A stretch of 32,000 bases of DNA from contig NZ_RSDW01000001.1 in assembly GCF_003945235.1 (NCBI RefSeq), positions 5,400,001-5,432,000 on the forward strand. The letters are read 5' to 3'. A program made the position numbers and the translations under genes. This DNA is from Edaphobacter aggregans (GTDB lineage: Bacteria; Acidobacteriota; Terriglobia; Terriglobales; Acidobacteriaceae). A model generated the notes under the pieces. It had not been told where the DNA came from, did no database searches, and was given only the letters and a program-made list of their open reading frames with translations. Shown here one piece after another: positions 11,505 through 24,920 of the stretch (position 1 is the stretch's first letter; each line of letters begins with the position of its first letter).

Positions 11505-11505
11505 A

Positions 11506-14500
11506 ATGGAGATCCAAGACACGCTGCATCTCGATGCGGTAACAGCGCAGCATCAACTTCGGGACCGCCTCGTAGGGTTGGCGCGAAGCGAGTCTTTCGT
11601 CCGGTCCCCCGCAGTTTCTGCTGCGTGCGAACGGCTCTGGCTCGCCAATGGCGATGCCGCAGGGCTGCTGAGTGAGATATGGGTTGAATCTCTATTCCCT
11701 GCAAAATCTTCGGGTATCTCGCTGAAGACCACAGCAAACGTCGCGCCGTCGCTGCTTCGCCAGCTCGAGCGTTCGGCGGCTCTCCCTCTGGATCGCAAAC
11801 TCTATGACCATCAGGCCCGGACGATTCAACTCGAATACTCGAGCCGTGGCACAGATGAACGCCCTGCAATGATTGTCTCGGCTGGAACCGGCGCCGGCAA
11901 GACCGAAGCGTTTCTATTGCCGATGCTGAACGATCTCTTTTCAACGCCCCGGAAGGCAGGTGAGACCGGCGTCCGAGCGATCCTGCTCTACCCCTTGAAT
12001 GCGTTAGTTAACGATCAGATTGAGCGGCTCCACGGATGGCTCAAGGGGCAAGGCGAGATTACGGTCATTCACTATACGAGCGAGACCCCGCAGGATGAAC
12101 CAGATCCCAAGGCGGTATTCGATCCCAGCCGGCTGCGAACACGACTTGAGGCGCAAAGAAATCCTCCGGATATCTTGATCACAAACTACTCGATGCTTGA
12201 GTACCTCCTCTGTAGGCCTCAAGACAATCCACTCTTCGGAAAGGGTCTGCGGACGCTTGTCCTCGACGAGGCACACCTTTATAGCGGAAGTCTCGCAGCT
12301 GAAATTTCTCTTCTGTTGCGACGTGTCATGTTACGTTGCGGCGTCCCAAGCGAGCGAGTACTCCAAATTGCAACCTCCGCAACGCTTGGAGGCAGCTCTA
12401 GCGAGATCAAAGACTTTGCCGCCGGCATCTTTTCGAAGTCTCTCTCTCTGGTCCACCATATACCCGGCAAGACCTCCCGTCGGGAGCTGCCGAAGCAAGC
12501 GAGTCCCTCAGCTCAGTGCAGGCCGGAGGATATGCTGAAGCTCACCGAGGCGATTAAGTTGCGCCCCCTGGTAGATGCGAAGGGGCTGCGCACCGATCCG
12601 GAGCTATGCGATGAACTCCGCGCGCTCTCTCCACTATTCGTTGATTCTCGGGCGCATTTCGATTCGGACGAGAGAAGGCCTGCGAGCCTCCTGCACGCAC
12701 TGATCGGCCAAATGCCTCAGCTTCACACCTTAGACAACCTGTTCTGGAATCACCACGAAACTGGATCCGTCATGAAATTGCGCGAAGTCGCCCAAGAGAT
12801 TTGGCAGGCAAACTCTCAGCTCGCGATGCGAGCCACTGTGGCGCTACTCCAGTTGGGATCTCAGGCTCGATTGAATCTCCAGGAATTACCTCTGTTACCT
12901 CACAAGCTACACCTTCTCGCCCGCGCACCCGGGCCGATCAGCGTTTGCGTGAATCCCGACTGCAACGCGGCGCCTGAGGATCGAATCCCCGGTGGAGGTG
13001 CCGTCTCGCTAGACTCGGGGGGGGCCTGCAAGCATTGCGGGTCTGCAACCTTATCCTTGGCACGGTGTAATAGATGTGGCTTGGAGGCGGTCGCTGGAAG
13101 CCGGAGATCCGACAATACGCTACACCCTCGAGGCCAAACATTTGGCCGAGCTAGAAGAAATGCAAGCGAGATGTTTTTTCAGCTCGCTCCCGATGGAGAC
13201 GTCTTTTACAACATCGCGACACGTGATTGTGAGGAGGGCGGCCAGACGGTTCGCATGGCCGAAATTGTGCTTTGCCCGCATTGCGGGGCGGAGGATGATC
13301 CATTTCGTTCCCTAAGCTTGCTGGATGCCCTCGTTCTCCCTGTGGTAGCAGAGACTTTACACGCTTCCCTCCCAGTCATATCGGATCACGAACGCGCCTG
13401 GCTTCCGGCCGGCGGCAGGCGATTGCTTGCATTTAGCGACAGCCGTAACAGGGCGGCGCGGCTAGGCCCACTTTTAACGCGAAGCCATGAAATCCAGATG
13501 GGGCGCTCGTTGATCGATCAGGTGCTAGGCACAGCAACGCCGGACGCAGGTGTTCGGAGGCTTCGTCAGCGGAATATTCAACGAACATTGGAGGATCTCG
13601 CAAGCTCCGATCTAAGCGCCTCGTTGAGGGCAGAACTCGAATCCGATCTGAGGTCCCAACGAACTGAACTCGAAGCAATCGATTTGGGCATAACCATTGA
13701 AGAGTTGGGCAACCGTCTCAAGCACGCACCCGGACTGGCTCAGTTCTACTGCCGTCCTAGCGCAGTCACGCAACGGGCGGCCGAATGGACTCAAACTACA
13801 TGGGAGCGCAATAGAACGGAGATGATGGCGTGGGCGCCGACGATCCTCTCGAGAGAACTCGCCGTACCGGCATGGCAACGGTTGTCGCTTGAGTCGGCAG
13901 GTCTGGTTGAGATCGTATATCCGGGAATAAGCGATTGGAGGCCGCCGGTCGGCCTGGGCTTTACGCCCGCGATAGCAGACGGTCTCAAAGAACAATGGCC
14001 CGTCCTCATTGCAGCCTTACTGGACATCGCGAGAAGGGACCGTGCCGTGACTCTCGGCTCACGCGATCGAGATCATGTTGAATACTCGACGCCTCTTGGG
14101 AAGTGGATGAGCTTACGAACACGTTCCGACACATCTTTGATCTCCTTTGCAGGATCGGCGCAAGGCAGTCGATCGCGGAGGCCTGCGCTCGTCGTGAAGC
14201 TGCTAGAGCGCTTAGGTTGCGTCTCTCGAATTGACGAGCTTACCTCCCAGGTGTTGGAGGCTGTCTTTCAGCAGTTGATCGATGCTGGCCAACAAGGCCA
14301 GTTGCCTTGGATTGAAGTTGGTGATCGGCAAAGCAGGGACGGGATCTCACGAGCCTTCAGACTGAAATTTGATGGACTTCGTGTTCGGCGCCCGTTCAAT
14401 CTCTATCGCTGTGAAGTCACGGGAGAACTTTGGCCCAGGTCTCTCTTGGGGCTCTCGACGACATCTACTGATGGGCGATCTGACCTGAAACCGGTCACTC

Positions 14501-16620
14501 ACGCCGAAGCCGACCAAGATCCACGTTTTGCACGGACGCGTCAGGAAATCCGCTCATCTGAGATATTCCGGATCGGCATTTGGGCTGACGAGCATTCGGC
14601 ACAGCTTGATCCCAAGGAGAATCGCAGACTTCAGGATCTCTTCTCTAAAGGGGCGCGCAATATCCTCTCGGCTACGACAACGCTTGAAGTTGGTATTGAT
14701 ATTGGCGGGCTCTCTGCCGTTCTGCTGGGCAATGTGCCTCCTTCTCGGGCTAACTATCAACAACGCGGTGGTAGAGCTGGCCGACGTGCAGATGGGTCGT
14801 CACTAGTCTGCACATTCGCACCAAACCGCCCCTTCGACCAGGCAGTATTCAATCACTTCAGCCATTTCTTCAGCAAACAGTTGCGTAAGCCCACAGTTCG
14901 CCTTGGGCGTGAGCGCTTCGGGCGTAAGCATGCCCACTCGTTTCTCCTGGGAGAATTCTTTCGGCGCATATATCCAGCAGGAACGACCGTTACCACAATG
15001 AACGCCTTTAATCAGATGGGTTGGCTCTGCGGAGAACAACAAGTTCCAAGGCAGGTCGCCGACCAACCACGAGTCGAGCAACTCATGTCCCCAAACGCAC
15101 TCATTCTGGATGAATCGGCTTCCTGGTGGGTTAGCGGTGATGCCCCGTTTCTACAGTTCGATCACTTCCTCGGTTTTCTTCTTACCGGAGAGAATTCGGT
15201 CAAAGTTCAGCTCGAAGCCTTGCTGCAGGACACGCCGCTCAGCGATACCGTCAACCGCGTGATCTCAGACGCTCAGTCTTCGTTCCGATCCGCGTGTGTG
15301 GCCTGGTCGAAGGACTATCGGTCGTTGGTGAGTGCGTGGCAGTCGGGAATTGCGTCAGGTGTTCCGAATTCAACGCTGAACGCGATCCATTATCAAGCGA
15401 AGACCCTCTGGCAAACGACGACGATCTCGTCGCTAGCTGAGAGGCGGTTCCTCCCACGGTATGGATTTCCTCTGGACGTTCAAGTTTTGACCGCCTTGAC
15501 GGAAGGTCGCGAGGAACCCGTCCGTTTTCAGCGCGGTTCGCTTCTCGCGCTGAGCGAGTACGTCCCCGGGTCAGTCCTGCTCGGAGGAGGGCGCAGTTAC
15601 ACATCAAGAGGCATTCTGAACTTTTGGTCCGCGAGCGGGGACAAGAGTTTTGGCCTCAGGAAATTTCAGTATGCGTGTCAGTCCGGACATCGATGGACTG
15701 AGCTCCAGCCCCTACAAGGGGACCGGTGCCCAACTTGCAATGACTTTCTTCAGAGTTCTGGACGAGAACTGCTGATTCCCACATTCGGCTATTCCACGGC
15801 TCAATGGGACCCGCCGACCTGGGAAGGAGCGCAGGAGCGAATAGGTGAAACGCAAGTACTGGCGTCCGGTTTTCTGACAGCTGGAGCTTCGCCGATCATC
15901 ACGGATTTTGCAGGAATTGTCGGCATGTCTGCCGCCCCACACGAAAACGCGGAGTTGCTTGCAACCAACTCAGGTGAATTTGACGCCGGCTTTGCCATCT
16001 GCACTAAGTGTGGCTTTACCGACAGTATGAGATCAGGGGCGGACGACCTTCCCCGGAGCGGGGAGGGCGTCGATTTCAACGAACACCTACCGCTGCGCTC
16101 AAGACTTAACAGCAAGAAGTGCTGGAATAAAGGAGAAGAACCTGTACTTCGACATCAACATTTAGCAGCACAACACAACACGGACCTGTTGGAGCTTGAT
16201 CTCGAAGATGTACCCGGCCTCCGTACAAGGGTTATGGCAATGACCTTCGCTCACGCTGTTCACTTAGCTGCGGCAGAATTGCTCGAGGTGGACTCGCGCG
16301 AAATCAGTCTCTCAGTCCATGAGATCGATGACCAAACGTCGTGGAAGATCCAGCTCTACGACTCCGAGGCTGGTGGCTCGGGGCACATCCTTGAACTGGC
16401 TGAGAGGCATCATGAATTGCCTGCAGTGCTTAAGCTCGTACTTTTTCGAAATGCTCAACACAATGCAATATGTACTAGTGCGTGCATCCAATGTCTGCTA
16501 ACGCAAGGGAGTCAAGATGCATACGAGGCCGGGCTTCTTGATCGGCGCGCTCTTCTCGATCTGTTGATAACGACTGAATCCACAGATTGCGTAACCGAAT
16601 CGAGTTCCACTGCGTTTTAA
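11506..16620 (+). CDS. Giant DEAH-box SF2 helicase with Zn-ribbon insertions and a C-terminal DUF1998/MZB domain (DruE/DrmAB/MrfA-like)
   Basis: The ATG at 11506 is 1 nt after the upstream stop (TGA 11502-11504) and is preceded by a GGGGGGAG Shine-Dalgarno sequence; the listed 11452 is a TTG. Helicase motifs: Q-like LYDHQ, motif I SAGTGAGKTEA (from 11881), motif II LVLDEAH (DEAH 12265-12276), motif III ATSATL, motif IV-like LLAFSDSRNRAARL, EHSAQL, motif V ILSATTTLEVGIDIGGL, motif VI QQRGGRAGRR. Cys clusters: CVNPDCN..CKHCG..CNRCG and CPHCG. The C-terminus carries RFLPRYGFPLDV...ALSEYVPGS, CPTCN, CTKCG, LYDSEAGGSGH and CTSACIQCL, typical of DUF1998. Confidence 0.9.
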   Translation: MEIQDTLHLDAVTAQHQLRDRLVGLARSESFVRSPAVSAACERLWLANGDAAGLLSEIWVESLFPAKSSGISLKTTANVAPSLLRQLERSAALPLDRKLYDHQARTIQLEYSSRGTDERPAMIVSAGTGAGKTEAFLLPMLNDLFSTPRKAGETGVRAILLYPLNALVNDQIERLHGWLKGQGEITVIHYTSETPQDEPDPKAVFDPSRLRTRLEAQRNPPDILITNYSMLEYLLCRPQDNPLFGKGLRTLVLDEAHLYSGSLAAEISLLLRRVMLRCGVPSERVLQIATSATLGGSSSEIKDFAAGIFSKSLSLVHHIPGKTSRRELPKQASPSAQCRPEDMLKLTEAIKLRPLVDAKGLRTDPELCDELRALSPLFVDSRAHFDSDERRPASLLHALIGQMPQLHTLDNLFWNHHETGSVMKLREVAQEIWQANSQLAMRATVALLQLGSQARLNLQELPLLPHKLHLLARAPGPISVCVNPDCNAAPEDRIPGGGAVSLDSGGACKHCGSATLSLARCNRCGLEAVAGSRRSDNTLHPRGQTFGRARRNASEMFFQLAPDGDVFYNIATRDCEEGGQTVRMAEIVLCPHCGAEDDPFRSLSLLDALVLPVVAETLHASLPVISDHERAWLPAGGRRLLAFSDSRNRAARLGPLLTRSHEIQMGRSLIDQVLGTATPDAGVRRLRQRNIQRTLEDLASSDLSASLRAELESDLRSQRTELEAIDLGITIEELGNRLKHAPGLAQFYCRPSAVTQRAAEWTQTTWERNRTEMMAWAPTILSRELAVPAWQRLSLESAGLVEIVYPGISDWRPPVGLGFTPAIADGLKEQWPVLIAALLDIARRDRAVTLGSRDRDHVEYSTPLGKWMSLRTRSDTSLISFAGSAQGSRSRRPALVVKLLERLGCVSRIDELTSQVLEAVFQQLIDAGQQGQLPWIEVGDRQSRDGISRAFRLKFDGLRVRRPFNLYRCEVTGELWPRSLLGLSTTSTDGRSDLKPVTHAEADQDPRFARTRQEIRSSEIFRIGIWADEHSAQLDPKENRRLQDLFSKGARNILSATTTLEVGIDIGGLSAVLLGNVPPSRANYQQRGGRAGRRADGSSLVCTFAPNRPFDQAVFNHFSHFFSKQLRKPTVRLGRERFGRKHAHSFLLGEFFRRIYPAGTTVTTMNAFNQMGWLCGEQQVPRQVADQPRVEQLMSPNALILDESASWWVSGDAPFLQFDHFLGFLLTGENSVKVQLEALLQDTPLSDTVNRVISDAQSSFRSACVAWSKDYRSLVSAWQSGIASGVPNSTLNAIHYQAKTLWQTTTISSLAERRFLPRYGFPLDVQVLTALTEGREEPVRFQRGSLLALSEYVPGSVLLGGGRSYTSRGILNFWSASGDKSFGLRKFQYACQSGHRWTELQPLQGDRCPTCNDFLQSSGRELLIPTFGYSTAQWDPPTWEGAQERIGETQVLASGFLTAGASPIITDFAGIVGMSAAPHENAELLATNSGEFDAGFAICTKCGFTDSMRSGADDLPRSGEGVDFNEHLPLRSRLNSKKCWNKGEEPVLRHQHLAAQHNTDLLELDLEDVPGLRTRVMAMTFAHAVHLAAAELLEVDSREISLSVHEIDDQTSWKIQLYDSEAGGSGHILELAERHHELPAVLKLVLFRNAQHNAICTSACIQCLLTQGSQDAYEAGLLDRRALLDLLITTESTDCVTESSSTAF

Positions 16621-16648
16621 GCACGGGTCCGCACGAACGCGCATGCCG

Positions 16649-16664
16649 CCAGAATCGATTCTGG
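16649..16664. promoter_or_regulatory. Perfect 16-bp palindrome CCAGAATCGATTCTGG between the giant helicase gene and the RecD-like gene
   Basis: Read directly at 16649-16664, 29 nt after the helicase stop. No T-tract follows, so it is not a canonical intrinsic terminator. It could be a protein-binding site or a short hairpin. Confidence 0.25.
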
Positions 16665-16769
16665 ATTGGAGCTAAATCGCTGATGCACTCATCTGGGAGG
16701 CAACACCGACCGACTTCACATTTGTGATCATGTTGATCTGTAAGGTTGTCGTTTACAGTAATCCCAGCG

Positions 16770-18275
16770 ATGAAAGATCCAGACTCGAATGGCAGCCGCC
16801 TGACCAATCTCGCGAGACGCTGGCGCAAGCGACTCACCCAGGCGCAACCGGAAGCAGATTCTCAAGAGACGTTCTTCTCGCCACCACCACGGGCCGAGGG
16901 GACTAGCGTCGTGGTAAGAGCAATCGTACCGATGCCAGCTGTACCTACCCCGATAGAAGAATCCTCAACCGACCCTGAGCTTACGACGGACCAGGCAGAG
17001 GCGCTCCGTAAGATTGAAGCCGCCTACGAGCCAGGCGAGTTCTACCTACTTACGGGGCACGCTGGCTCAGGCAAGACGTATCTCATGCAGCGGCTAACGA
17101 AGAACATGCTGGCAAAGAAGCGCCGGATCGTTCTCACTGCACCCACGCACAAGGCGGTCGCGGTCCTCGCGCGCAAACTGGCCGAGGCCAACATCAAGGA
17201 CGTACCATGCCGCACGATCCATAGCATCCTCAGCCTAACGCCGAAACCTCGGACGGATCGGCTCGTTTTCGAAAGAGAGCGCGACGCAGAACCCGTCACG
17301 GCCGATGTCGTAGTTGTCGACGAATGCAGTATGGTTTCGGAGGATTTATACCGCCATATAAAGCGGCACCTGCCCAATGCCTTCGTCCTATTTCTTGGGG
17401 ATCCCGCTCAGCTGCCTCCAGTAGGAGAAGTAGAAAGCCAGACGTTCGCAACAAAGAATCGGTCGCACCTCACGACGATTGTGCGGCAAGCGGCTGGGAA
17501 CCCGATCCTGGCTGCCGCAGGCATCATCCGCGCCAGTCAGGGAGGACCGGCGGATATGTCGTGGTGTGCGGCGGCTGCGCTTGAAACCAAGCAGGGCATT
17601 TTCCTGCCAGCCGATGCAGCGCACCGGTGGATGAAGAAGGCCTTCACGTCGCCGGAGTTCGACGCCGACCCGGATAGCTTCCGCTACCTCGCATGGACAA
17701 ATTCGCGTGTTCATCAGGTGAACGAGTTAATCCGGGCTTGGCGGTACGGCGCAAATATTCCGACGCCGTTCATGCCTGGCGAAAGTGCGCTGTTCCGCGC
17801 TCCCGTTGTAATCGACGAGTCCATCATCTTCGCCAACAATCAGGAAGCCAGAGTTATAGCGATTGAACGATCGACGTTCACTCACGAGATTCAGGAGGCT
17901 GATGGCGTTCCTCAATGGACAGCCTCGATCCCATCCTGGAAGATCACACTTCGCGATGTCGAAGGCATCGACAAAGCGGTTCATATGCACGCTGATGAGC
18001 GCGAGTTTCAGAGGGTAATTGAGCGGATAAAGGATGAAGCGGCTGAGTCACGTCTACGATGGAAGCACCTTCATGGGTTCCAGCAGAGTCTGGCACAGCT
18101 GCAATCTGTCTATTGTCTGACGGTTCATCGGAGTCAGGGCTCAACATTCCAGACTGCGTTTCTCGACCTACCTGACATACGCCGGCGCGAAAAAACCAAC
18201 CTATTGGAAGCGCAACAAATGCTATATGTGGCTGTGACCCGGCCCTCGCAGCGCCTGATAGTGGTTGGGGAGTGA
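16770..18275 (+). CDS. SF1B RecD/Dda/Pif1-like DNA helicase (AAA_30 plus UvrD_C-type)
   Basis: Motifs: Walker A TGHAGSGKTY, TAPTHKAV, Walker B VVVDECSMV, LFLGDPAQLPPV, TIVRQ, LTVHRSQGSTF, LYVAVTRPSQRLIVVG. I prefer the ATG at 16770 (MKDPDSNG...) to the listed TTG at 16746. The N-terminal 90 aa or so are low-complexity. Confidence 0.85.
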   Translation: MKDPDSNGSRLTNLARRWRKRLTQAQPEADSQETFFSPPPRAEGTSVVVRAIVPMPAVPTPIEESSTDPELTTDQAEALRKIEAAYEPGEFYLLTGHAGSGKTYLMQRLTKNMLAKKRRIVLTAPTHKAVAVLARKLAEANIKDVPCRTIHSILSLTPKPRTDRLVFERERDAEPVTADVVVVDECSMVSEDLYRHIKRHLPNAFVLFLGDPAQLPPVGEVESQTFATKNRSHLTTIVRQAAGNPILAAAGIIRASQGGPADMSWCAAAALETKQGIFLPADAAHRWMKKAFTSPEFDADPDSFRYLAWTNSRVHQVNELIRAWRYGANIPTPFMPGESALFRAPVVIDESIIFANNQEARVIAIERSTFTHEIQEADGVPQWTASIPSWKITLRDVEGIDKAVHMHADEREFQRVIERIKDEAAESRLRWKHLHGFQQSLAQLQSVYCLTVHRSQGSTFQTAFLDLPDIRRREKTNLLEAQQMLYVAVTRPSQRLIVVGE

Positions 18276-18307
18276 CACCTCTCCAATACTTCCACCCACC
18301 TGCTTTC

Positions 18308-19813
18308 CTACATGTAATACCTGAATGATGACAGCGGAGTGGTCGAATCATCCTCTCCATACTCAGCCATGATGCCCCCAATCTTCCTTGAAAAGGCGAG
18401 CGTCACCGGTTGTCCTCCTGACATACTGGCGGTATTCCAGTTCATTCGCGCCAATCCGAGAATGTCTTTCGCTACCTGTTCGAGGTCAATTATCCGGTCG
18501 CTTCGTAACTCCACGGGCGCAGGTATATGTGGGCCAGGATAGGTGCCGATTGACGGCATATATCCCGTTGTAAAGAGGAAGGATTTCGATCCGTTCACCA
18601 GACAAAGAGTCCCGCGGTTTGGGGGGTATGAACCAAATCGCAGCAGCCGAAATTGCGTTGGCATGATGTTTATGAGCTCCACAACAGGAACCGAAGTTAG
18701 TGCATGACGAAAGCCTTCACTCTCGGCTTCACTAAAGGCCGACGTCTTGTGAAAAACCATTCGTACAGGATCACCACCCGTTCGATCACGATATTCCTCC
18801 AAGACGTTTGTAGCCAAAGCAGCCGCTTGGATGTCAGTCAAATGTACGTTACGCCCTTGGTCTTCGCTCCAGTCTACGTTTCCTCCACGCAGTGCGAACC
18901 CTTCCCCTTTGCTCGAAAAGGCCTGCGCGATGCTCGATTGAACGAGATGTCGTTGAGTTGTACGTAAGTGATGAAAACTAACTCCTACGAAACATGTCTC
19001 TGGGCCATCGAGATTGAGACGCCACGGGATGCCGCCAGCCTTGTAATAAAGGGCTACAGTGCTGTTCCATGCTCTGATATTAGGCGCCTGGTTAGATTCC
19101 TGGTCCTCTACCATGTGTCGCGTAGCGATCTGAACTGGCATTCGAAACCGCATTGCGCGAGCTTTGAGAGCCCTTCTGAAGTCGCGCTGAAGAAGATCCT
19201 CAGGCTGCTCCTCAACAGGCTGGCTATCAAAAGAGAGGGATAGTTGGGGATCACTCTGCTTCTTCTTGAGAGCAGCTACCGCTGCCTTGTCTTCCTTGGT
19301 CAGAGTCTCATTCAGCGACCAGCAACGAGCGATCAACTCGTCTGGCAGACAACACAAAACTACGTCCGGCTTCTTTGTCTCCAGAGAAGAAAGTTGTCGG
19401 ACCCCTTCTGCATACAGCTCCAAAACCGCTTCGAATCGGGTCTTCGGATCACTCAGGTTGAGACAGTTCGCAAGTTCGCCCGATTCACCACCCAGACTTT
19501 TGACGAATCTCGTATTCTGTATCAGCTTGGCGCGGAAGATGTCTTGGAATCCCGGGAAGGCTGGGTATTGAGTCATGTCAGATGAGGCTTCGGGTAGGAT
19601 TTGTTGGCAACGTTCAAGCCATCTCTGAGTGGCATCAATCATCATGTCCGGGCCTACTAGTCCAACTGTGATGGTTTCATTTCGCCCGGCACCGAAGCGC
19701 AGGTCGAACGGGCCGGCCTCCCGAAGGCCCTGTCGCATATCAGAAAATTCGCCGGGGCCGCCAAATTCAAGAAGCGGCTCCGGTAACTGACGAAGATCAA
19801 TTCGAATCGGCAT
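18308..19813 (-). CDS. Short prokaryotic Argonaute (MID plus PIWI only), predicted catalytically inactive
   Basis: End-to-end pattern match to short pAgos as I recall them (e.g. the SPARTA Ago): N-terminus LPEPLLEFGG...GLREAGPFDL, ALKARAMRFRMPVQIA (MID), ALYYKAGGIPWRL, and C-terminus GQPVTLAFSRKIGGIMAEY...SSFRYYM. The PIWI catalytic positions read GVSFHH and FHKTS instead of G.DV.H and HRDG. The ATG at 19813 (MPIRIDL) overlaps the upstream gene's stop by 17 nt; the listed 19834 is a TTG. Confidence 0.9.
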   Translation of the reverse strand: MPIRIDLRQLPEPLLEFGGPGEFSDMRQGLREAGPFDLRFGAGRNETITVGLVGPDMMIDATQRWLERCQQILPEASSDMTQYPAFPGFQDIFRAKLIQNTRFVKSLGGESGELANCLNLSDPKTRFEAVLELYAEGVRQLSSLETKKPDVVLCCLPDELIARCWSLNETLTKEDKAAVAALKKKQSDPQLSLSFDSQPVEEQPEDLLQRDFRRALKARAMRFRMPVQIATRHMVEDQESNQAPNIRAWNSTVALYYKAGGIPWRLNLDGPETCFVGVSFHHLRTTQRHLVQSSIAQAFSSKGEGFALRGGNVDWSEDQGRNVHLTDIQAAALATNVLEEYRDRTGGDPVRMVFHKTSAFSEAESEGFRHALTSVPVVELINIMPTQFRLLRFGSYPPNRGTLCLVNGSKSFLFTTGYMPSIGTYPGPHIPAPVELRSDRIIDLEQVAKDILGLARMNWNTASMSGGQPVTLAFSRKIGGIMAEYGEDDSTTPLSSFRYYM

Positions 19814-22574
19814 TATCTTCCTCTTCCGCTTCAATTCGATAGGTCTCTGCGAGTTCGGCTATTTCATTGACGAGTTCTTCGTCGATGTCGACTTCGCTCA
19901 CATCCGTATCCTGTTCTTCGATTAGGCTGGAATCCGTTAGAACTACAGTCGGGAACTTCGCAGCAAGCGTTATCCGAGAATCAGACTGTCCTAACGACTT
20001 CGAAATTGCCCGAGTTTCGCCTGGTAGAAGATCAGAAACTCGAGGCTCTGGAGCAAAATTAAACATTCCTGTCTCTCCGCGCGCTAGAACCCAGAGCCAA
20101 AATGAGATGTCATTGAACACCGCATTGTTGTAATCCCGCGAAGCCCGTTGGGTTGAAAGTTTGTTGACTCTTTCAGACGCAAGCAATCCCTTCAATCCAT
20201 TAAAGGTGAACACATAGCCAGGCTCGATGATCAGAACCCACACGTCGCCGTAATATTCAAACCTATAGCTGAAGGACTGATGCTCCCAGTAGAGCACTTT
20301 GTCTGTTCGATTTGAGGTTCTGGCCTTAACAACTGTTCGAGTCGCCTTTCGCAATCGAGCTTGATAAGTAATTACACGAGGGCCGTCATCTTCTTTCGGG
20401 AAGTAGGCTCGCTTGCGTTTCTTATCCACTAATAATCCGGCCCGATAAAGATGCCCTTCGAGGCTCATGTTCAGAAGCTGAACCAATTGACGCGAACCAT
20501 CTAAATGCCCAGAAAGCTCATTTAGTGATAAGGTTTCTGTGTCTCCGCCGTCGAGCAATCGAGACAACGGGTTTCTTCGATCTTCGAGATCGTAGAAGCT
20601 GAAGAACCTCCCATCTGAAAGGAGAAAAGGTGGGATCCATTGCTCGCCCGCCTCCTGCCAGACCTCGGAAAGACTGCGAACAGAAGTCCCGGCATGATAG
20701 ACCTGACTCGGCAACTTCGTAACTTCCAGTACGTTGGCAGCATAGCGACTTGTAGTCGCTACGAGCGGAGAAGCTGTGCCTGTTGACTCGTCTACTGCCT
20801 CGGGTCTGGAGAAGATTTCGATCTCAAATGCTGTGTTATCGTTGTTTGGACCAAATCGAACATCTCCACCATTGTTTCTGACGTCTCGTAGAACATCGGA
20901 AAGTCCAGAACCTCTCTTATCCATCTCGCCACTGCCGTAGAACAGATCAGCGAGCACGGGGTTGCGGTAGCCCTTGATCCCGCGGCGGCCACGACGAATT
21001 TCAGTTTCAATTGATCCGGTCTCAAACCTATGTCGAACTTCCTCGACCAAGCCTCCTGGATTGGAGATCTTGATACTGGACGACGTAACGACGATCTCAA
21101 TATTTCCGGCCATGCGATAGTCGCGATGTACGAGTGCATTGACGATAACCTCCTTCAATGCGAGAGGCGGGTAAGGGACTACGCTTTCGGATACTTCCCC
21201 TTTGAGCCTGAAGGACCGATTAAAGCTGCTTAGGAATTGGGTGATCTGCTCGAACTGTTCCCACAAGTGGCCAGAGATGGTTCCCTCAAAACTCTCCTTA
21301 TCCGACAGGTGGGATTTGTCGTCGGCTGACTGACGAATGCGCTTCAACCATTCAGGACTACCAATGGCCTCAATGCGGGTTATAGCGGAAGTGATATGAC
21401 TGTCGGGCTTTCTTCCAAACAACAAAACACCGGCATTGGTCAGCTGCTCCACGGTCGGGCTATTTGCGCGGACAGCCAAGTTCAAGTTGAATAGCTGCTC
21501 CGTTACCCATGCCCGCTCAACCTGAGGCGGAACGCTCAGTTTGAGCGCCTCTGCGTATTGAAGAATACGGGTATGAAGGGTAGACCAGTCCAGTTCGCTC
21601 AGTTCTACCGACGAAACGTCCATGTCGAACGTCGGCGATTGATGGTGTGCACTTGCAGGTCCTGGAGATGAAAATGACAGGTCGGCATCCAGATTGAGTG
21701 CCCACAGGTCGCGCGCAAATAACTCGTCAAATCCGTCGATCTCGATCGTGCTGAAGTTGTCTCCGATTGTCTTTGCAAGCTCATCCACCAACGGAGGAAG
21801 TTCCTGGCTTGACTCGCCAGTGCGCCGGCACCAGAAAATCCCGTGACGATAGAAGTGAGCGCTCTCCGCATTATCGATGAGCAAATGACGCATTACGGAC
21901 GGTTCGGCACCGCGGTAGCCGACCACGATAAGCGGTCGGTCCCGCAATAATGGAAGAAGCATCTCGATCAACCTTGGATCGAGTTTTTGAACCTCGTCAA
22001 TGATGTTCTTGTCTGTGTAGTGATCCACTGAGCCGTGGAGATATACCAGCTGCGGATATTGAGGATCGGTTGTGAATTTCGTGTAATCCGAAGCCGTCTG
22101 GATTGCATTGATGTAGTGAGGACGGCCTTTCTGAGCTCGTGTATCGAGCAGCAGGGAGTCAAAGTTCGTCGTGAGCACCGTGTGAACAAGCTGGAGATGT
22201 AAGAACTCTGCAAGTTTGTCATATCCCGGACTGGGTTCAATCCCGGGCGAGAGAAGCTTGCGAAAGAACTCTGCTCGCGCGTGGCGCGGTTGCAAAAGGT
22301 GTTGAACAACTGAGGGGTAGTTGTCTACGAGCGCCGCGTTCTGATCGAACCACGATTGCTGCTCCACCCAGGGCAGCCAGTCACTTCTCTGGAGTCTCGG
22401 ATCTTCTTCCGATCTTCCGTGCTGATTAGCATAAGCCCAACGAGCGGCCCTTTCGACCACTCCTGCGGCCGCAGGAATGCCAGAACGAACGGAAGCACCT
22501 GCTCCGAGGAGTAGCACTGGCTTGGGTCGCGATTTAAGTAAGGAATAAATTCTACCGATGCTTCCGACCTGCAT
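19797..22574 (-). CDS. SIR2 / AlbA_2-HATPase_c_4 ('RecG-like', Schlafen-related) / APAZ three-module partner of the short pAgo (925 aa)
   Basis: SIR2_2-type motifs: LLLGAGASVRSGIP, TTNFDSLL, YLHGSV, IVVGYRGAEPSV. Middle module: GVLLFGRKP..., PPLALKEVIVNALVHRDYRMAGNIEIVVTSSSIKISNPGGL, YRNPVLADLFYGSGEMDKRGSGLSDV. The C-terminal 310 aa or so parallel the APAZ of TIR-APAZ as I recall it (LEVTKLPSQVYHA, PPFLLSDGRFFSFYDL, WVLIIEPGYVFTFNG, acidic tail). The gene overlaps the pAgo gene. Confidence 0.85.
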   Translation of the reverse strand: MQVGSIGRIYSLLKSRPKPVLLLGAGASVRSGIPAAAGVVERAARWAYANQHGRSEEDPRLQRSDWLPWVEQQSWFDQNAALVDNYPSVVQHLLQPRHARAEFFRKLLSPGIEPSPGYDKLAEFLHLQLVHTVLTTNFDSLLLDTRAQKGRPHYINAIQTASDYTKFTTDPQYPQLVYLHGSVDHYTDKNIIDEVQKLDPRLIEMLLPLLRDRPLIVVGYRGAEPSVMRHLLIDNAESAHFYRHGIFWCRRTGESSQELPPLVDELAKTIGDNFSTIEIDGFDELFARDLWALNLDADLSFSSPGPASAHHQSPTFDMDVSSVELSELDWSTLHTRILQYAEALKLSVPPQVERAWVTEQLFNLNLAVRANSPTVEQLTNAGVLLFGRKPDSHITSAITRIEAIGSPEWLKRIRQSADDKSHLSDKESFEGTISGHLWEQFEQITQFLSSFNRSFRLKGEVSESVVPYPPLALKEVIVNALVHRDYRMAGNIEIVVTSSSIKISNPGGLVEEVRHRFETGSIETEIRRGRRGIKGYRNPVLADLFYGSGEMDKRGSGLSDVLRDVRNNGGDVRFGPNNDNTAFEIEIFSRPEAVDESTGTASPLVATTSRYAANVLEVTKLPSQVYHAGTSVRSLSEVWQEAGEQWIPPFLLSDGRFFSFYDLEDRRNPLSRLLDGGDTETLSLNELSGHLDGSRQLVQLLNMSLEGHLYRAGLLVDKKRKRAYFPKEDDGPRVITYQARLRKATRTVVKARTSNRTDKVLYWEHQSFSYRFEYYGDVWVLIIEPGYVFTFNGLKGLLASERVNKLSTQRASRDYNNAVFNDISFWLWVLARGETGMFNFAPEPRVSDLLPGETRAISKSLGQSDSRITLAAKFPTVVLTDSSLIEEQDTDVSEVDIDEELVNEIAELAETYRIEAEEEDNADSN

Positions 22575-22677
22575 TGCTTGCTCCAGGGGAATGCCCAGCT
22601 CTAAATCCTGATGTCTACAAGATCCAGTGTATCGGCCCCAAGTGCAAAGTTGCTTAGAATGTGAAGTTTGTCCCGGA

Positions 22678-22707
22678 TTTATAAGTGGGAAACGTCTTTC
22701 TCGTCAA
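22678..22707 (-). promoter_or_regulatory. Candidate sigma-70-type promoter for the SIR2-APAZ/pAgo operon
   Basis: The minus strand reads TTGACG (complement of 22702-22707), an 18-nt spacer, then TATAAA (complement of 22678-22683). This is about 100 nt upstream of the ATG at 22574. The match is by consensus only. Confidence 0.25.
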
Positions 22708-22760
22708 TCACTAGTGGTTTGTCATCAACTCGGAAGTCGGAACGGTTCTCCGCGTTGTCC

Positions 22761-23873
22761 TTAGCCTTCGAACAGGGGTGATTGTGATCCTTCTTGGTCT
22801 CTAAAATTACTCAAACCGACCCCGACTAAACGAAAGCGCCGTGCTGCCCCGACATCGACACGCTCTCGCAATGAAAGTGCGATCTCAGCCAGTTCCTCGC
22901 ACGATAGGGGAGGAACGATAGGTGTGTGGCTACGGGTAAGGATGTTGAATTCGCTTGTCTTCAGTTTGAGAACTACGGTCCGCGCCACGCGCGACTCCTT
23001 GCGGGACGCAGACCAGACCTTTTCTGCGAGTCGCCGGATGAGGTCTTCCATCTCCGATAACGGAATGTCCCGCTCGAAAGTATCTTCTGCGGAGATCGAC
23101 TTAGTTGGCCTGTCGGGAATGACTCTGTTGTGATCGATGCCGCGGGCGAGTTCATAGAGGCGCAATCCATAGCGGCCAAACCGTGTTTCGAGGGCGGCCA
23201 GATCGAAGGCATGCAGGTCGCCTACTGTCTGAATGCCGATCTGCTTTAGCCGAGTTTCGGTTACTCTTCCGACTCCGGGAATGCGTCCGACAGGGAGTGG
23301 GGGAAGGAACGTATCCAGGTCCGCCGGCTGAATGACGAAAAGACCATCGGGCTTCCGCCAGTCGGAGGCGATCTTTGCGAGGAATTTATTCGGCGCGACG
23401 CCCGCTGACGCGGTCAACTGAAGCTCTTCGCGGATTTGTTGGCGGATGGTTTTGGCAACTCTGGTTGCCGTAGGTAAGTGCGTTTTATTCTTTGTGACGT
23501 CTAGATACGCCTCGTCGAGCGAAAGAGGTTCGACGAGGTCGGTGTGGCGCTGAAAAATATCTCGTACTGCGCGTGACACAGCCTTGTAACGCGTGAAATC
23601 GGGAGGAAGGAAGATCGCTTCGGGACACAAGCGTTCGGCAGTAACCGCCGGCATTGCGGAACGTACACCGAAGCGTCTCGCCTCATAAGACGCGGCGCAT
23701 ACAACAGACCGTTTTCCGCGCCACGCCACGACAACTGGTCTGCCGCGCAGCGTCGGGTCATCTCGCTGTTCAACCGAGGCGTAGAACGCGTCCATATCGA
23801 TATGAACGATCTTGCGAAACGTCACCTCGCCAGAGCTATCGGCTTTGGGACCAGGAGATCTGTCATCGTTCAT
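22761..23873 (-). CDS. dinB: DNA polymerase IV (Y-family translesion polymerase)
   Basis: Motifs: IVHIDMDAFYASVEQRDDPTLRGRPVVV, SLDEAYLDVT, ASAGVAPNKFLAKIASD, and an HhH segment IPGVGRVTETRL. I prefer the ATG at 23873 (MNDDRSPG..., 370 aa) to the listed GTG at 23957, whose extra 28 aa are hydrophobic and atypical. Confidence 0.9.
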   Translation of the reverse strand: MNDDRSPGPKADSSGEVTFRKIVHIDMDAFYASVEQRDDPTLRGRPVVVAWRGKRSVVCAASYEARRFGVRSAMPAVTAERLCPEAIFLPPDFTRYKAVSRAVRDIFQRHTDLVEPLSLDEAYLDVTKNKTHLPTATRVAKTIRQQIREELQLTASAGVAPNKFLAKIASDWRKPDGLFVIQPADLDTFLPPLPVGRIPGVGRVTETRLKQIGIQTVGDLHAFDLAALETRFGRYGLRLYELARGIDHNRVIPDRPTKSISAEDTFERDIPLSEMEDLIRRLAEKVWSASRKESRVARTVVLKLKTSEFNILTRSHTPIVPPLSCEELAEIALSLRERVDVGAARRFRLVGVGLSNFRDQEGSQSPLFEG

Positions 23874-24030
23874 GCGCTTGATTGTAAGCGAAGAGGCGGC
23901 GAAAACTGCAACAGGATCGGACACATAAAATGCACTGGGTAGCAAAAACTTGATCACCCATGTGCGTGCGCCCGTCTCCCGTGCAAGGTGGCCTCGTTTG
24001 CCAAGAGCTGTACCCTGCCTTGGAAAGGTG

Positions 24031-24060
24031 AAAACGGGCTGATCTCACACAGATCAGCCC
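24031..24060 (-). terminator. Rho-independent terminator-like hairpin downstream of the SRAP gene and upstream of dinB
   Basis: Perfect 10-bp stem GGGCTGATCT (24036-24045), loop cacac, AGATCAGCCC (24051-24060). On the minus strand a GTTTT run (complement of 24031-24035) follows the stem. On the plus strand CTTTGG follows it. Confidence 0.5.
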
Positions 24061-24080
24061 TTTGGCCCCGCTCCTAAAAG

Positions 24081-24100
24081 TTTGTCGCATCTTTGTCGCA
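24081..24100. repeat. Tandem direct repeat TTTGTCGCA-tc-TTTGTCGCA (11-bp period) in the SRAP-dinB intergenic region
   Basis: Read directly: TTTGTCGCA at 24081-24089 and at 24092-24100. Function unknown. Confidence 0.3.
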
Positions 24101-24290
24101 AATAGCGCCGATTATGTCGGTATTGCGGCTCATCCGACTCGTAAGTGCTGTGCCGTCTATAATTTGCGGTTTGACTCATTTCATCGCATGGAAGAGGTCA
24201 TCTGTGAGATCTCGATTAGGTTGACGAGCTAATCTGCAAGCGTGGCGTCGCTATTCGATTTGCCTGAGCAATATTCATCACGTCAACCTA

Positions 24291-24920
24291 TCATGCGCTG
24301 TTCAGTGGGAGCTGCATATTGTGCGCTTCGAGCAGCTGGATGTTCATTTGCTCGGACGGAATGATGCGCAGTAAATGGAGTGGAGGGCGTACAGTAGGAG
24401 CAAACCACTCTGCGTAGTCACGCGGCTCCAATATCACCGGCTGGCGATCATGGATCTCCGCCATGGCCTCATTCGGCTCGCTCGTGATGACGGAGACGGT
24501 AGGAACATAATCTCCCGCCTTGTTCTTCCACATGCTCCAGGTGCCCGCCAATGCAAAGGGTTCACGCCCCGGAATGGTTATCTCATATTTGGGATTGTTC
24601 TTCTTATGCAGCCGTTTCCACTCAAAGAAGCTGTCGGCCGGCACAATACAGCGCCTCTCCTCAAAGGAGGTTTTCCAAAGACCCGTCTTCAGAATGCCGT
24701 CAGACCGCGTATTGAAGGTAAAGCGCTGGGGAAAGGTGAAGCCCCAATACATCAGCTCAACGCTGCGATCACCTTCGTCGTTTGTGAATACGACTGGCTG
24801 AAAACTGCCGGGGGTGATGTCATCCTCGGCTGAAAAGTTGAGGTCGTCGAGGTTGGCCCTTACCTGAAAAGCTTCCGCAATCCTTTGTTTATCCGATCTC
24901 CGTCGGTAGCGTCCACACAT
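24291..24920 (-). CDS. yedK: SOS-response-associated peptidase (SRAP/DUF159; abasic-site DNA-protein crosslink protein, YedK/HMCES family)
   Basis: A 209-aa ORF starting MCGRYRRR (the invariant Cys2 after Met). It contains the family-typical stretches WGF...FNTRSD and PADSFFEW. The family is assigned from motif memory. Confidence 0.85.
   Translation of the reverse strand: MCGRYRRRSDKQRIAEAFQVRANLDDLNFSAEDDITPGSFQPVVFTNDEGDRSVELMYWGFTFPQRFTFNTRSDGILKTGLWKTSFEERRCIVPADSFFEWKRLHKKNNPKYEITIPGREPFALAGTWSMWKNKAGDYVPTVSVITSEPNEAMAEIHDRQPVILEPRDYAEWFAPTVRPPLHLLRIIPSEQMNIQLLEAHNMQLPLNSA

What the first reader, a model, noticed from the sequence alone, without database searches (positions are those of the whole stretch)
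18308..19813. The short pAgo lacks the PIWI catalytic residues and has an Arg at the MID position that is His in the SPARTA pAgo I recall
At the positions where active Argonautes carry the first and third catalytic Asp (G.DV.H and HRDG contexts), this protein reads CFVGVSFHH and RMVFHKTSAF. It should therefore bind guides and targets without slicing and rely on the SIR2 partner as effector.

In the MID segment aligned by the shared LKAR string, this protein reads FRRALKAR, where the SPARTA pAgo I recall reads FHDQLKAR. That places Arg in the His position of the 5'-end binding motif.

The gene overlaps its partner's stop by 17 nt, which implies coupled, stoichiometric expression.
Basis: partly seen in the sequence, partly recalled or inferred. 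Interest (0 to 1): 0.45.

Follow-up and report, generated by a model that had tools for sequence, protein, structure and literature searches.

The report
Ordinary inactive short Argonaute, RK-type pocket
This gene encodes a typical non-cutting "short" bacterial Argonaute whose Arg-Lys guide-binding pocket is a common, already described variant, paired with a large SIR2-ATPase-APAZ partner in a catalogued but untested defence module.

Summary
The ORF at 18308..19813(-) is a 501-aa short pAgo from Edaphobacter aggregans (EDE15_4576). It scores 2e-146 against PADLOC pAgo_I. Its nearest solved relative is the SPARHA pAgo 9om4_B (2e-66).

A profile-profile alignment to the TtAgo family (98% probability) maps the TtAgo residues as follows:
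- **Catalytic tetrad:** D478/E512/D546/D660 fall on S279/V323/T357/R476, none acidic.
- **MID pocket:** R418/K422/Q433/K457 fall on R213/K217/Q228/K258.

The Arg-for-His change is real but not unusual. It is the "RK-type" MID motif described in 2018. It occurs in 60 of 121 diverse short pAgos and is also found in TtAgo. In solved SPARHA and SPARDA structures this Arg contacts the guide 5'-phosphate.

The 17-nt overlap is real. Five of seven related loci overlap by 11-17 nt and two have gaps of 6-10 nt.

The partner is more than SIR2-APAZ. It has an intact SIR2 site, a conserved GHKL ATPase module, an APAZ domain and an acidic tail. This is the S2B "RecG/DHS-like-APAZ" type. It is already in PADLOC and in the literature, and I found no experimental work on it.

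Verdict: a new member of a known kind, of low interest. The only open question is what the GHKL module does.

The parts
18308..19813 (-). Short pAgo gene (MID-PIWI only, 501 aa; EDE15_4576 of Edaphobacter aggregans)
   Evidence: PADLOC pAgo_I 2e-146. PDB 9om4_B 2.3e-66, SPARDA and SPARTA pAgos 1e-43 to 1e-48. The AF2 model matches short pAgos in Foldseek at TMq about 0.7. P0001 is 100% identical.
19040..19180 (-). MID 5'-end pocket, residues 212-258: R213 (19175-19177), K217 (19163-19165), Q228 (19130-19132), K258 (19040-19042). This is the RK-type R-K-Q-K motif.
   Evidence: Aligns to TtAgo R418/K422/Q433/K457, to AcaAgo R180/K184 and to NbaAgo R183/K187. K217 is present in 121/121, Q228 in 119/121 and K258 in 121/121 diverse short pAgos. 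Position 213 is R in 60, H in 53.
18386..18979 (-). Degenerate PIWI active site: S279 (18977-18979), V323 (18845-18847), T357 (18743-18745), R476 (18386-18388), in place of D-E-D-D/H.
   Evidence: hhalign against the TtAgo family profile: Prob 98.2%, E 5.7e-14. Column counts. No full tetrad in 120 relatives.
19797..19823 (-). Gene junction: GAGGA (19819-19823), a 5-nt spacer, the pAgo ATG (19811-19813), and the partner stop TGA (19797-19799). The overlap is 17 nt.
   Evidence: Sequence read directly. Junctions in relatives: overlaps of 17, 17, 11 and 11 nt, and gaps of 10 and 6 nt.
19797..22574 (-). Partner gene, 925 aa: SIR2, middle domain, GHKL ATPase, APAZ, acidic tail
   Evidence: PADLOC Aga_SIR2-PNTD1-PNTD2 (PDLC02402) E=0, and Aga_SIR2-Kinase-PNTD1-PNTD2. 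More than 720 full-length homologues.
21690..22556 (-). SIR2 (DHS-like) domain, residues about 7-295, with GAGAS 24-28, N137 and H180
   Evidence: Pfam SIR2_2 1.5e-9. Aligned to GsSir2 8jkz_A at 1.4e-8, with N137=N142 and H180=H186. Motifs conserved in at least 90% of 119 sequences.
20805..21629 (-). Middle alpha/beta domain plus GHKL (Bergerat) ATPase, residues about 316-590. N-box E475/N479, NPGG 505-508, GSG 555-557.
   Evidence: Pfam HATPase_c_4 5.9e-8. AF2 pLDDT 87.3. Foldseek top hit 3lmm at 6.4e-11 over 288 columns, followed by histidine kinases and PDKs. Motif residues invariant in 47 sequences. No AlbA_2 hit even at E<=10.
20025..20798 (-). APAZ domain, residues about 593-850
   Evidence: phmmer hits to HNH-APAZ 9om4_A (3.6e-24), DREN-APAZ 9jsb_D (2e-11) and DUF4365-APAZ 9qbp_A and 9qbq_A.
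19800..19949 (-). Acidic C-terminal tail of the partner (last 50 aa: 19 D/E, 1 K/R)
   Evidence: Composition counted. An acidic C-terminal tail is reported as an autoinhibitory feature of S2A and S2B APAZ proteins (PMC10899771).

Best explanation
This is a two-gene short-Argonaute defence module of clade S2B.

[quoted passage not shown] Its RK-type MID pocket (R213, K217, Q228, K258) should anchor the 5'-phosphate of a small guide, most likely RNA. Its PIWI domain has lost all four catalytic residues (S279/V323/T357/R476), so it can pair guide with target DNA but cannot cut it.

The pAgo most likely forms a heterodimer with the upstream-encoded 925-aa partner through that protein's APAZ domain. 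Target binding would then trigger oligomerisation and switch on the partner's SIR2 domain to hydrolyse NAD+, giving abortive infection. The acidic C-terminal tail probably acts as an autoinhibitor. The conserved GHKL ATPase module probably controls assembly.

Shown here: domain identities, residue mapping, motif conservation, and conserved gene pairing and junction. Inferred from characterised relatives (SPARTA, SPARSA, SPARDA, SPARHA, RzAgo): heterodimer formation, guide type, NADase output, and the roles of the tail and the GHKL module.
For: pAgo identity.

Tetrad loss: hhalign Prob 97.4% against TtAgo alone and 98.2% against the TtAgo family. Column counts at these positions: S94/A11/G8 at 279, T56/S52 at 357, R73/D12/K12 at 476. 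No full tetrad in 120 relatives.

MID pocket: R213, K217 and Q228 are invariant in the close family. The equivalent R180/K184 in AcaSPARHA and R183/K187 in NbaSPARDA bind the guide 5'-phosphate.

Partner: SIR2 catalytic N and H are conserved. The APAZ region matches HNH-, DREN- and DUF4365-APAZ proteins. GHKL motifs are invariant and the fold is confirmed. The tail is acidic.

Operon: the same gene pair occurs in 6 other loci with unrelated flanks, with an 11-17 nt overlap or a gap of 10 nt or less.

Literature: all short pAgos lack DEDX and carry HK or RK MID motifs. S2B includes DHS-like or RecG/DHS-like APAZ partners predicted to bind NAD.
Against: There are no functional data for this subtype; searches for characterised DHS-like-APAZ systems found none.

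The AF2 model of the pAgo is only moderate (pLDDT 69.7).

The glutamate-finger position (V323) lies in a loop, and the fourth position aligns either to R476 or to a gap. These two assignments are therefore approximate, although no acidic residue lies at or immediately next to either site (D327 is four residues downstream of V323 and is not conserved in the family).

The SIR2 domain shows only about 1e-8 similarity to GsSir2, so a different chemistry such as ADP-ribosylation is not excluded. Guide type cannot be read from sequence: TtAgo carries the same Arg and, from my own knowledge of TtAgo, uses DNA guides.
Confidence: 0.8

Rival explanations
1. The R-for-H change at the first MID position gives this pAgo a distinct guide specificity compared with SPARTA, for example a 5'-A preference, tolerance of 5'-OH guides, or DNA guides. 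On this reading the Arg is functionally meaningful rather than a neutral variant.
For: In AcaSPARHA, R180 makes a cation-pi contact with guide base A1, and D178 (equivalent to D211 here) also contacts A1. MllaSPARHA works with or without a 5'-phosphate. NbaSPARDA, also R-type, prefers 5'-AU guides. SPARTA, which is H-type, shows no 5'-base specificity. R dominates among the nearest relatives (30 of the 40 top-ranked) and H among the distant ones.
Against: R and H both occur widely, and both types bind 5'-P RNA guides in characterised systems. The other A1 and U2 contact residues of SPARHA (G163, R164, D212) have no clear equivalents here, because there is an insertion at 163-205 and P244 aligns to D212. 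The specificity of the R-type systems differs among themselves.
Confidence: 0.3
2. The main output is not SIR2-mediated NAD+ depletion. Either the GHKL module or the SIR2 domain has another role, such as ADP-ribosylation, signal production or ATP-dependent remodelling, and SIR2 serves mainly as an NAD sensor or scaffold.
For: The partner is about 340 aa longer than canonical SIR2-APAZ proteins (584-587 aa). GHKL motifs are invariant in 47 sequences. In RzAgo, a homologous PF13749 GHKL domain drives ATP-dependent tetramerisation.
Against: The SIR2 catalytic Asn/His and the GAGAS loop are conserved in at least 90% of the family. No other recognisable effector domain is present: there is no AlbA_2/SLFN hit and no nuclease hit. 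All characterised SIR2-bearing pAgo systems deplete NAD+.
Confidence: 0.15
3. The pAgo retains nuclease activity through a non-canonical active site located elsewhere in the PIWI domain.
For: A few relatives carry Asp at single tetrad positions: D at 279 in 2 and D at 476 in 12 of 121.
Against: None of the four positions is acidic in this protein. The 279, 357 and 476 substitutions are S, T or S, and R in most relatives. Koopal et al. 2022 report no target cleavage by SPARTA for any guide/target combination, and the literature read here describes all short pAgos as catalytically inactive.
Confidence: 0.02

Closest known systems
AcaSPARHA short pAgo (PDB 9om4_B; Acidithiobacillus caldus, HNH-APAZ partner), clade S2B
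   Same: Best sequence match (2.3e-66). MID-PIWI only. The RK motif matches: R180/K184 correspond to R213/K217, and D178 to D211. The degenerate PIWI reads similarly (CYVGISFHQ, HKTT, FSK). The partner APAZ is also the best match (3.6e-24).
   Different: The effector there is an HNH nuclease that forms filaments and degrades DNA. Here it is SIR2 plus GHKL. The query has a 40-aa insertion at residues 163-205 of the MID domain.
SPARDA pAgos (NbaAgo 9jsb, XauAgo 9qbl, EaeAgo 9qbp), clade S2B
   Same: E 1e-46 to 1e-48 and the top Foldseek hits at TMq 0.72. RK-type MID in NbaAgo and XauAgo, with R183/K187/K240 binding the 5'-phosphate in NbaAgo. The APAZ domains are related.
   Different: The effector is a DREN (DUF4365) nuclease, not SIR2, and there is no GHKL module.
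SPARTA pAgos (MapAgo 8fex, CrtAgo 8ifk, BabAgo 8qlo), clade S2A
   Same: Same architecture, E about 1e-44. PIWI is inactive. The partner has an acidic C-terminal tail. The output is NAD+ depletion.
   Different: The MID motif is HK-type (His207 in BabAgo where this protein has R213). The effector is TIR, not SIR2.
GsSir2/Ago (SPARSA, PDB 8in8/8jkz), clade S1B
   Same: SIR2 effector fused to APAZ and encoded upstream of a short pAgo. The SIR2 catalytic Asn and His align (N142/H186 with N137/H180).
   Different: The pAgo is only distantly related (67.8 bits against 227.7 for SPARHA). GsSir2-APAZ is 584-587 aa and has no GHKL insert. S1B partners are reported to lack the acidic tail.
RzAgo SLFN-pAgo 'Schlatpase' systems (bioRxiv 10.64898/2026.05.29.728809)
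   Same: Contains a PF13749 GHKL ATPase linked to an inactive Argonaute sensor. The PADLOC model PDLC02394 (labelled only 'pAgo', 1121 positions, a length in the reported SLFN-pAgo range) hits partner residues 353-520 at 1.3e-9.
   Different: RzAgo is a single-chain long-B pAgo with an AlbA_2 nuclease effector. Here no AlbA_2 domain is detectable, the effector is SIR2, and the pAgo is a separate short protein.
TtAgo (long-A, active nuclease)
   Same: The same Arg-Lys-Gln-Lys MID pocket: R418/K422/Q433/K457 correspond to R213/K217/Q228/K258.
   Different: TtAgo has N and PAZ domains and an intact D478/E512/D546/D660 tetrad.

Membership tests
Short prokaryotic Argonaute | MID and PIWI domains only; no N or PAZ domain | tested here: met
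   501 aa, aligned end to end with 471-507-aa solved short pAgos. Foldseek TMq about 0.7 over about 515 columns.
Short prokaryotic Argonaute | PIWI lacks the DEDX catalytic tetrad | tested here: met
   S279/V323/T357/R476 fall at TtAgo D478/E512/D546/D660. hhalign Prob 98.2%.
Short prokaryotic Argonaute | Canonical 5'-P pocket with HK or RK at the first two motif positions, followed by Q and K | tested here: met
   R213-K217-Q228-K258. Motif definition from PMC6299218.
Short prokaryotic Argonaute | Encoded next to, or fused with, an APAZ-domain protein | tested here: met
   The upstream gene's residues 593-898 match HNH-APAZ at 3.6e-24. The pairing is conserved in 6 other loci.
Clade S2B short pAgo system (SPARDA / SPARHA / DHS-like-APAZ) | The pAgo groups with S2B pAgos rather than with S1 or S2A | tested here: inconclusive
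   Ranking by score: SPARHA 227.7 bits, SPARDA 162-168, SPARTA 152-157, GsAgo 67.8. This favours S2B, but no formal phylogeny with reference clades was built.
Clade S2B short pAgo system (SPARDA / SPARHA / DHS-like-APAZ) | The partner carries one of the S2B effector types, including RecG/DHS-like, fused to APAZ with an acidic C-terminal tail | tested here: met
   SIR2_2 plus HATPase_c_4 ('RecG C-terminal') plus APAZ. The tail has 19 D/E in 50 aa. Type named in PMC9097488 and PMC10899771.
SPARSA (S1A/S1B SIR2-APAZ + short pAgo) | SIR2 domain with conserved catalytic Asn and His | tested here: met
   N137 and H180 align to GsSir2 N142 and H186. Conserved in at least 90% of the family.
SPARSA (S1A/S1B SIR2-APAZ + short pAgo) | The pAgo belongs to the S1 clade and the partner is a plain SIR2-APAZ protein of about 580 aa | tested here: not met
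   GsAgo is the weakest short-pAgo match (6.9e-18). The partner is 925 aa with a GHKL insert.
SPARSA (S1A/S1B SIR2-APAZ + short pAgo) | Guide- and target-triggered NAD+ depletion | not testable with these tools
   This needs biochemistry or in-cell NAD measurements.
Schlatpase (SLFN-GHKL) Argonaute systems | AlbA_2/Schlafen nuclease domain | tested here: not met
   No PF04326 hit for residues 301-600 at E<=10. The middle region 300-440 is poorly conserved.
Schlatpase (SLFN-GHKL) Argonaute systems | PF13749 GHKL ATPase domain with ATP-binding motifs | tested here: met
   HATPase_c_4 5.9e-8. E475, N479, G507-G508 and G555-S556-G557 are invariant. The fold matches 3lmm and histidine kinases. ATP binding itself was not tested.

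The most novel reading that the evidence does not exclude
The S2B 'SIR2-GHKL-APAZ + RK-type short pAgo' module could be a two-input system. [quoted passage not shown] No ATP-dependent control layer of this kind was found for any short pAgo system in the literature searched here.
Probability: 0.3. Interest if true: 0.5.

Novelty: new member of a known kind. Interest (0 to 1): 0.15.

Why it matters
For the finding as stated, it matters little. Loss of the DEDX tetrad is a defining property of all short pAgos. The Arg at the first MID position is the published RK-type motif, shared with TtAgo, SPARDA and SPARHA.

The locus is useful mainly as a clean, full-length, chromosomal example from a cultured acidobacterium of the S2B SIR2(DHS-like)-GHKL-APAZ/pAgo subtype. 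That subtype is abundant in metagenomes: more than 700 partner and more than 1400 pAgo homologues were scored. It appears never to have been studied experimentally. Working out what the GHKL ATPase does would extend the known activation mechanisms of short Argonaute systems.

Tried and rejected
- **Pfam on the pAgo:** no hit, even at E<=10, so the Piwi model PF02171 does not detect it. I relied on PADLOC, PDB and profile comparisons instead.
- **First hhalign attempt:** the close-family alignment A1 (Neff 2.3) against single-sequence TtAgo gave only Prob 1.2%. Replacing it with a 121-sequence diverse profile raised this to 97.4%, and adding a TtAgo family profile to 98.2%.
- **First catalytic position:** the single-sequence alignment shifted it by 2 residues (H281 rather than S279). 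The family-profile alignment and the G-hydrophobic-D strand context both favour S279. Neither residue is acidic.
- **Schlafen/AlbA_2 domain in the partner:** suggested by Ryazansky's og_40 and the 2026 SLFN-pAgo preprint, but not detected. The model of residues 296-600 matches the GHKL part and the preceding domain of 3lmm, not a nuclease.
- **Neighbouring helicases:** I considered whether the convergent RecD-like helicase or the DruE-like helicase belongs to the system. This was rejected because flanks differ in all 6 related loci.
- **Promoter and terminator scan of 18100-22900:** nothing informative.
- **PADLOC scan of ten other ORFs in the window:** no hits.
Full report
**1. Observation**

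The minus-strand ORF 18308..19834 has an in-frame ATG at 19813, which gives a 501-aa protein. Homologues of 493-504 aa begin at the equivalent Met (MPIK..., MLID...). A GAGGA motif sits 5 nt upstream of this ATG, so 19813 is the likely start.

The upstream gene (19797..22574, 925 aa) ends with TGA at 19799..19797. The overlap is therefore exactly 17 nt.

The protein is 100% identical to EDE15_4576 of Edaphobacter aggregans, on a 6.15-Mb contig.

**2. Identity of the protein**

- Pfam gives no hit.
- PADLOC pAgo_I scores 2e-146 over the full length.
- phmmer against the PDB finds only short pAgos at high significance:
  - AcaSPARHA 9om4_B, 2.3e-66
  - SPARDA pAgos 9jsb, 9qbp and 9qbl, 1e-46 to 3e-48
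  - SPARTA pAgos 8qlo, 8ifk and 8fex, about 1e-44
  - the SPARSA pAgo GsAgo 8in8_C, far weaker at 6.9e-18
- An AF2 model (pLDDT 69.7, moderate) retrieves the same short pAgos by Foldseek at TMq 0.65-0.72.
- The family is large. 1427 proteins scored E<=1e-10 in the word-indexed search. 879 cluster representatives did so in the exhaustive search.

**3. Catalytic tetrad**

I took the TtAgo sequence from plasmid pTT27 (L001:22997-25054). I confirmed D478, E512, D546 and D660 in their expected sequence contexts.

A 121-sequence alignment of diverse short-pAgo representatives was compared with TtAgo by hhalign. It gave Prob 97.4% and E 4.6e-11 against TtAgo alone. Against a 13-sequence TtAgo family profile it gave Prob 98.2% and E 5.7e-14.

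| TtAgo residue | TtAgo context | This protein | Context here |
|---|---|---|---|
| D478 | VGFD | S279 | VGVS |
| E512 | AGER | V323 | RNVH |
| D546 | LRDG | T357 | HKTS |
| D660 | LADR | R476 or an adjacent gap | FSRK |

No acidic residue lies at any of the four sites.

Across the 121 sequences:
- position 279 is S 94, A 11, G 8, D 2;
- position 323 is P 93, V 11;
- position 357 is T 56, S 52;
- position 476 is R 73, D 12, K 12.

No sequence has a complete tetrad. The predicted secondary structure places S279 in a beta-strand. It places T357 just after strand 351-356, as expected for an RNase H-like fold. The refutation condition, "intact DEDX elsewhere", is not met.

**4. MID pocket**

The same alignments put R213, K217, Q228 and K258 on TtAgo R418, K422, Q433 and K457.

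The HMMER alignments to solved short pAgos give these equivalents:
- R213/K217 correspond to R180/K184 of AcaAgo.
- They correspond to R183/K187 of NbaAgo.
- They correspond to H207/K211 of BabAgo, which reads QFHDQLKAR.

The structure papers describe the contacts directly. In AcaSPARHA the 5'-phosphate is anchored by R180, K184 and the backbone of I196. R180 also makes a cation-pi contact with guide base A1, and D178 contacts A1 as well (PMC12738770). Here I229 corresponds to I196 and D211 to D178. In NbaSPARDA the 5'-phosphate interacts with K187, K240 and R183 (PMC12205087). The Arg is therefore in the 5'-end pocket.

It is not unusual, however:
- Ryazansky et al. 2018 reported that almost all short pAgos carry HK or RK at the first two motif positions, and that TtAgo exemplifies the Arg variant (PMC6299218).
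- In my diverse set, position 213 is R in 60 sequences and H in 53.
- R dominates among the nearest relatives (30 of the 40 top-ranked). H dominates among the more distant ones.
- Within the close family (at least 54% identity), D211-F-R-R-A-L-K-A218 is invariant.

**5. The partner and the operon**

The 925-aa partner hits the PADLOC models Aga_SIR2-PNTD1-PNTD2 (PDLC02402, E=0, full length) and Aga_SIR2-Kinase-PNTD1-PNTD2. Its parts are:

- **SIR2 domain.** Pfam SIR2_2. It aligns to GsSir2 at 1.4e-8. The GAGAS loop (24-28), TTN137FD and LH180GS match GsSir2 N142 and H186. These motifs are conserved in at least 90% of 119 family members.
- **Middle domain and GHKL ATPase (about 316-590).** AF2 pLDDT is 87.3. 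The best structural match is 3lmm, a COG2865-type AlbA_2/HATPase_c_4 protein, at E 6.4e-11 over 288 columns. Histidine kinases and PDKs follow. E475, N479, G507-G508 and G555-S556-G557 are invariant in 47 sequences. No AlbA_2/Schlafen domain is detectable.
- **APAZ domain (593-about 850).** It matches HNH-APAZ at 3.6e-24 and DREN-APAZ at 2e-11.
- **Acidic tail.** 19 D/E in the last 50 residues.

This corresponds to three published descriptions:
- the "DHS-like-APAZ" S2B partner of Koopal et al. 2022;
- the "RecG/DHS-like" partner of Finocchio et al. 2024, who also note that an acidic autoinhibitory C-terminus is conserved in S2A and S2B partners;
- og_40 of Ryazansky et al..

I found no experimental study of this subtype.

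The gene pair recurs in six other loci whose flanks are unrelated: integrase, ArdC, Type ISP restriction-modification genes, and others. Five of the seven loci, counting the window, have an 11-17 nt overlap and two have a 6-10 nt gap:

| Locus | pAgo identity to the query | Junction |
|---|---|---|
| window | (query) | 17-nt overlap |
| L005 | 89% | 17-nt overlap |
| L006 | 67% | 17-nt overlap |
| L007 | 60% | 11-nt overlap |
| L008 | 58% | 11-nt overlap |
| L003 | 61% | 6-nt gap |
| L002 | 55% | 10-nt gap |

This supports an autonomous two-gene module with probable translational coupling. Equal stoichiometry remains an inference.

**6. Mechanism**

*Shown here:*
- The sensor has an intact 5'-P pocket and a dead PIWI.
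- The partner has an intact SIR2 site, a conserved GHKL ATP-binding site, an APAZ domain and an acidic tail.
- The gene pairing is conserved.

*Inferred from characterised relatives:*
- The two proteins form an APAZ-mediated heterodimer.
- A small guide, probably 5'-P RNA, directs recognition of invader DNA.
- Target binding triggers oligomerisation, SIR2 NADase activation and abortive infection.
- By analogy with RzAgo, the GHKL module may couple assembly to ATP.

**7. Comparison and novelty**

The system works like SPARSA or SPARTA, with NAD+ depletion as the predicted output. By pAgo and APAZ similarity, however, it belongs with S2B (SPARHA and SPARDA).

It fails two SPARSA membership features: the pAgo clade and the plain SIR2-APAZ architecture. 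It also fails the Schlafen feature of Schlatpase systems.

The protein itself is an uncharacterised member of a catalogued subtype. Verdict: new member of a known kind, interest 0.15.

Noticed in passing
window 20805-21629 (-), partner residues about 316-590: The SIR2-APAZ partner contains an inserted middle domain plus a GHKL/Bergerat ATPase (Pfam HATPase_c_4). Its N-box and G-box residues are invariant across the family, and the fold matches 3lmm and histidine kinases. No Schlafen/AlbA_2 domain was detected, although the literature labels related partners 'SIR2-Schlafen-APAZ'. The role of this module in a short pAgo system is unknown.
   Followed up: partly
window 6702-18275 (+): Three large plus-strand genes converge on the pAgo operon. 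The first is a 1600-aa ORF with an RNA-polymerase alpha-CTD-like N-terminus and no PADLOC hit; it overlaps the next gene by 53 nt. The second is a 1722-aa DruE-like helicase (PADLOC DruE3 1.8e-202, DEAD/Helicase_C/MZB). The third is a 509-aa RecD/PIF1-like SF1 helicase (PADLOC PDC-S68 and PDC-M16A, about 1e-31). Together they may form a Druantia-like or novel helicase defence system.
   Followed up: partly
window 520-6276 (+) and 22761-24920 (-): The defence genes are flanked on both sides by DNA-damage-tolerance genes. On one side is an imuA-like (RecA fold), imuB (IMS) and dnaE2 (Pol III alpha) cassette. On the other are DinB (Pol IV) and an SRAP/YedK peptidase.
   Followed up: no
window 18001-23000: GC content drops to 0.50-0.52 across the pAgo operon, against about 0.55-0.58 in the flanking genes. 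This is consistent with horizontal acquisition.
   Followed up: no
L006 2869-3657 (-); L007 6139-7512; L005 7180-9506; L008 1-1063: Related pAgo operons sit beside a stand-alone 262-aa SIR2_2 gene (L006), a phage integrase with AlpA (L007), Prok-E2_D and ArdC genes (L005), and Type ISP restriction-modification genes (L008). These are variable contexts typical of mobile or defence islands.
   Followed up: no
alignment column of pAgo residue 476: 12 of 121 diverse short pAgos, and BabAgo (FADKIG), keep an Asp at the fourth tetrad position even though the other three catalytic positions are lost. In this protein the position is Arg.
   Followed up: no
window 19199-19327 (-), pAgo residues 163-205: The MID domain carries an insertion of about 40 residues (RCWSLNETLTKEDKAAVAALKKKQSDPQLSLSFDSQPVEEQPE) relative to AcaAgo. 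It lies just upstream of the RK motif and is modelled with low confidence (pLDDT below 50 for 188-208). It replaces the segment that holds the A1-contacting G163 and R164 in SPARHA.
   Followed up: no
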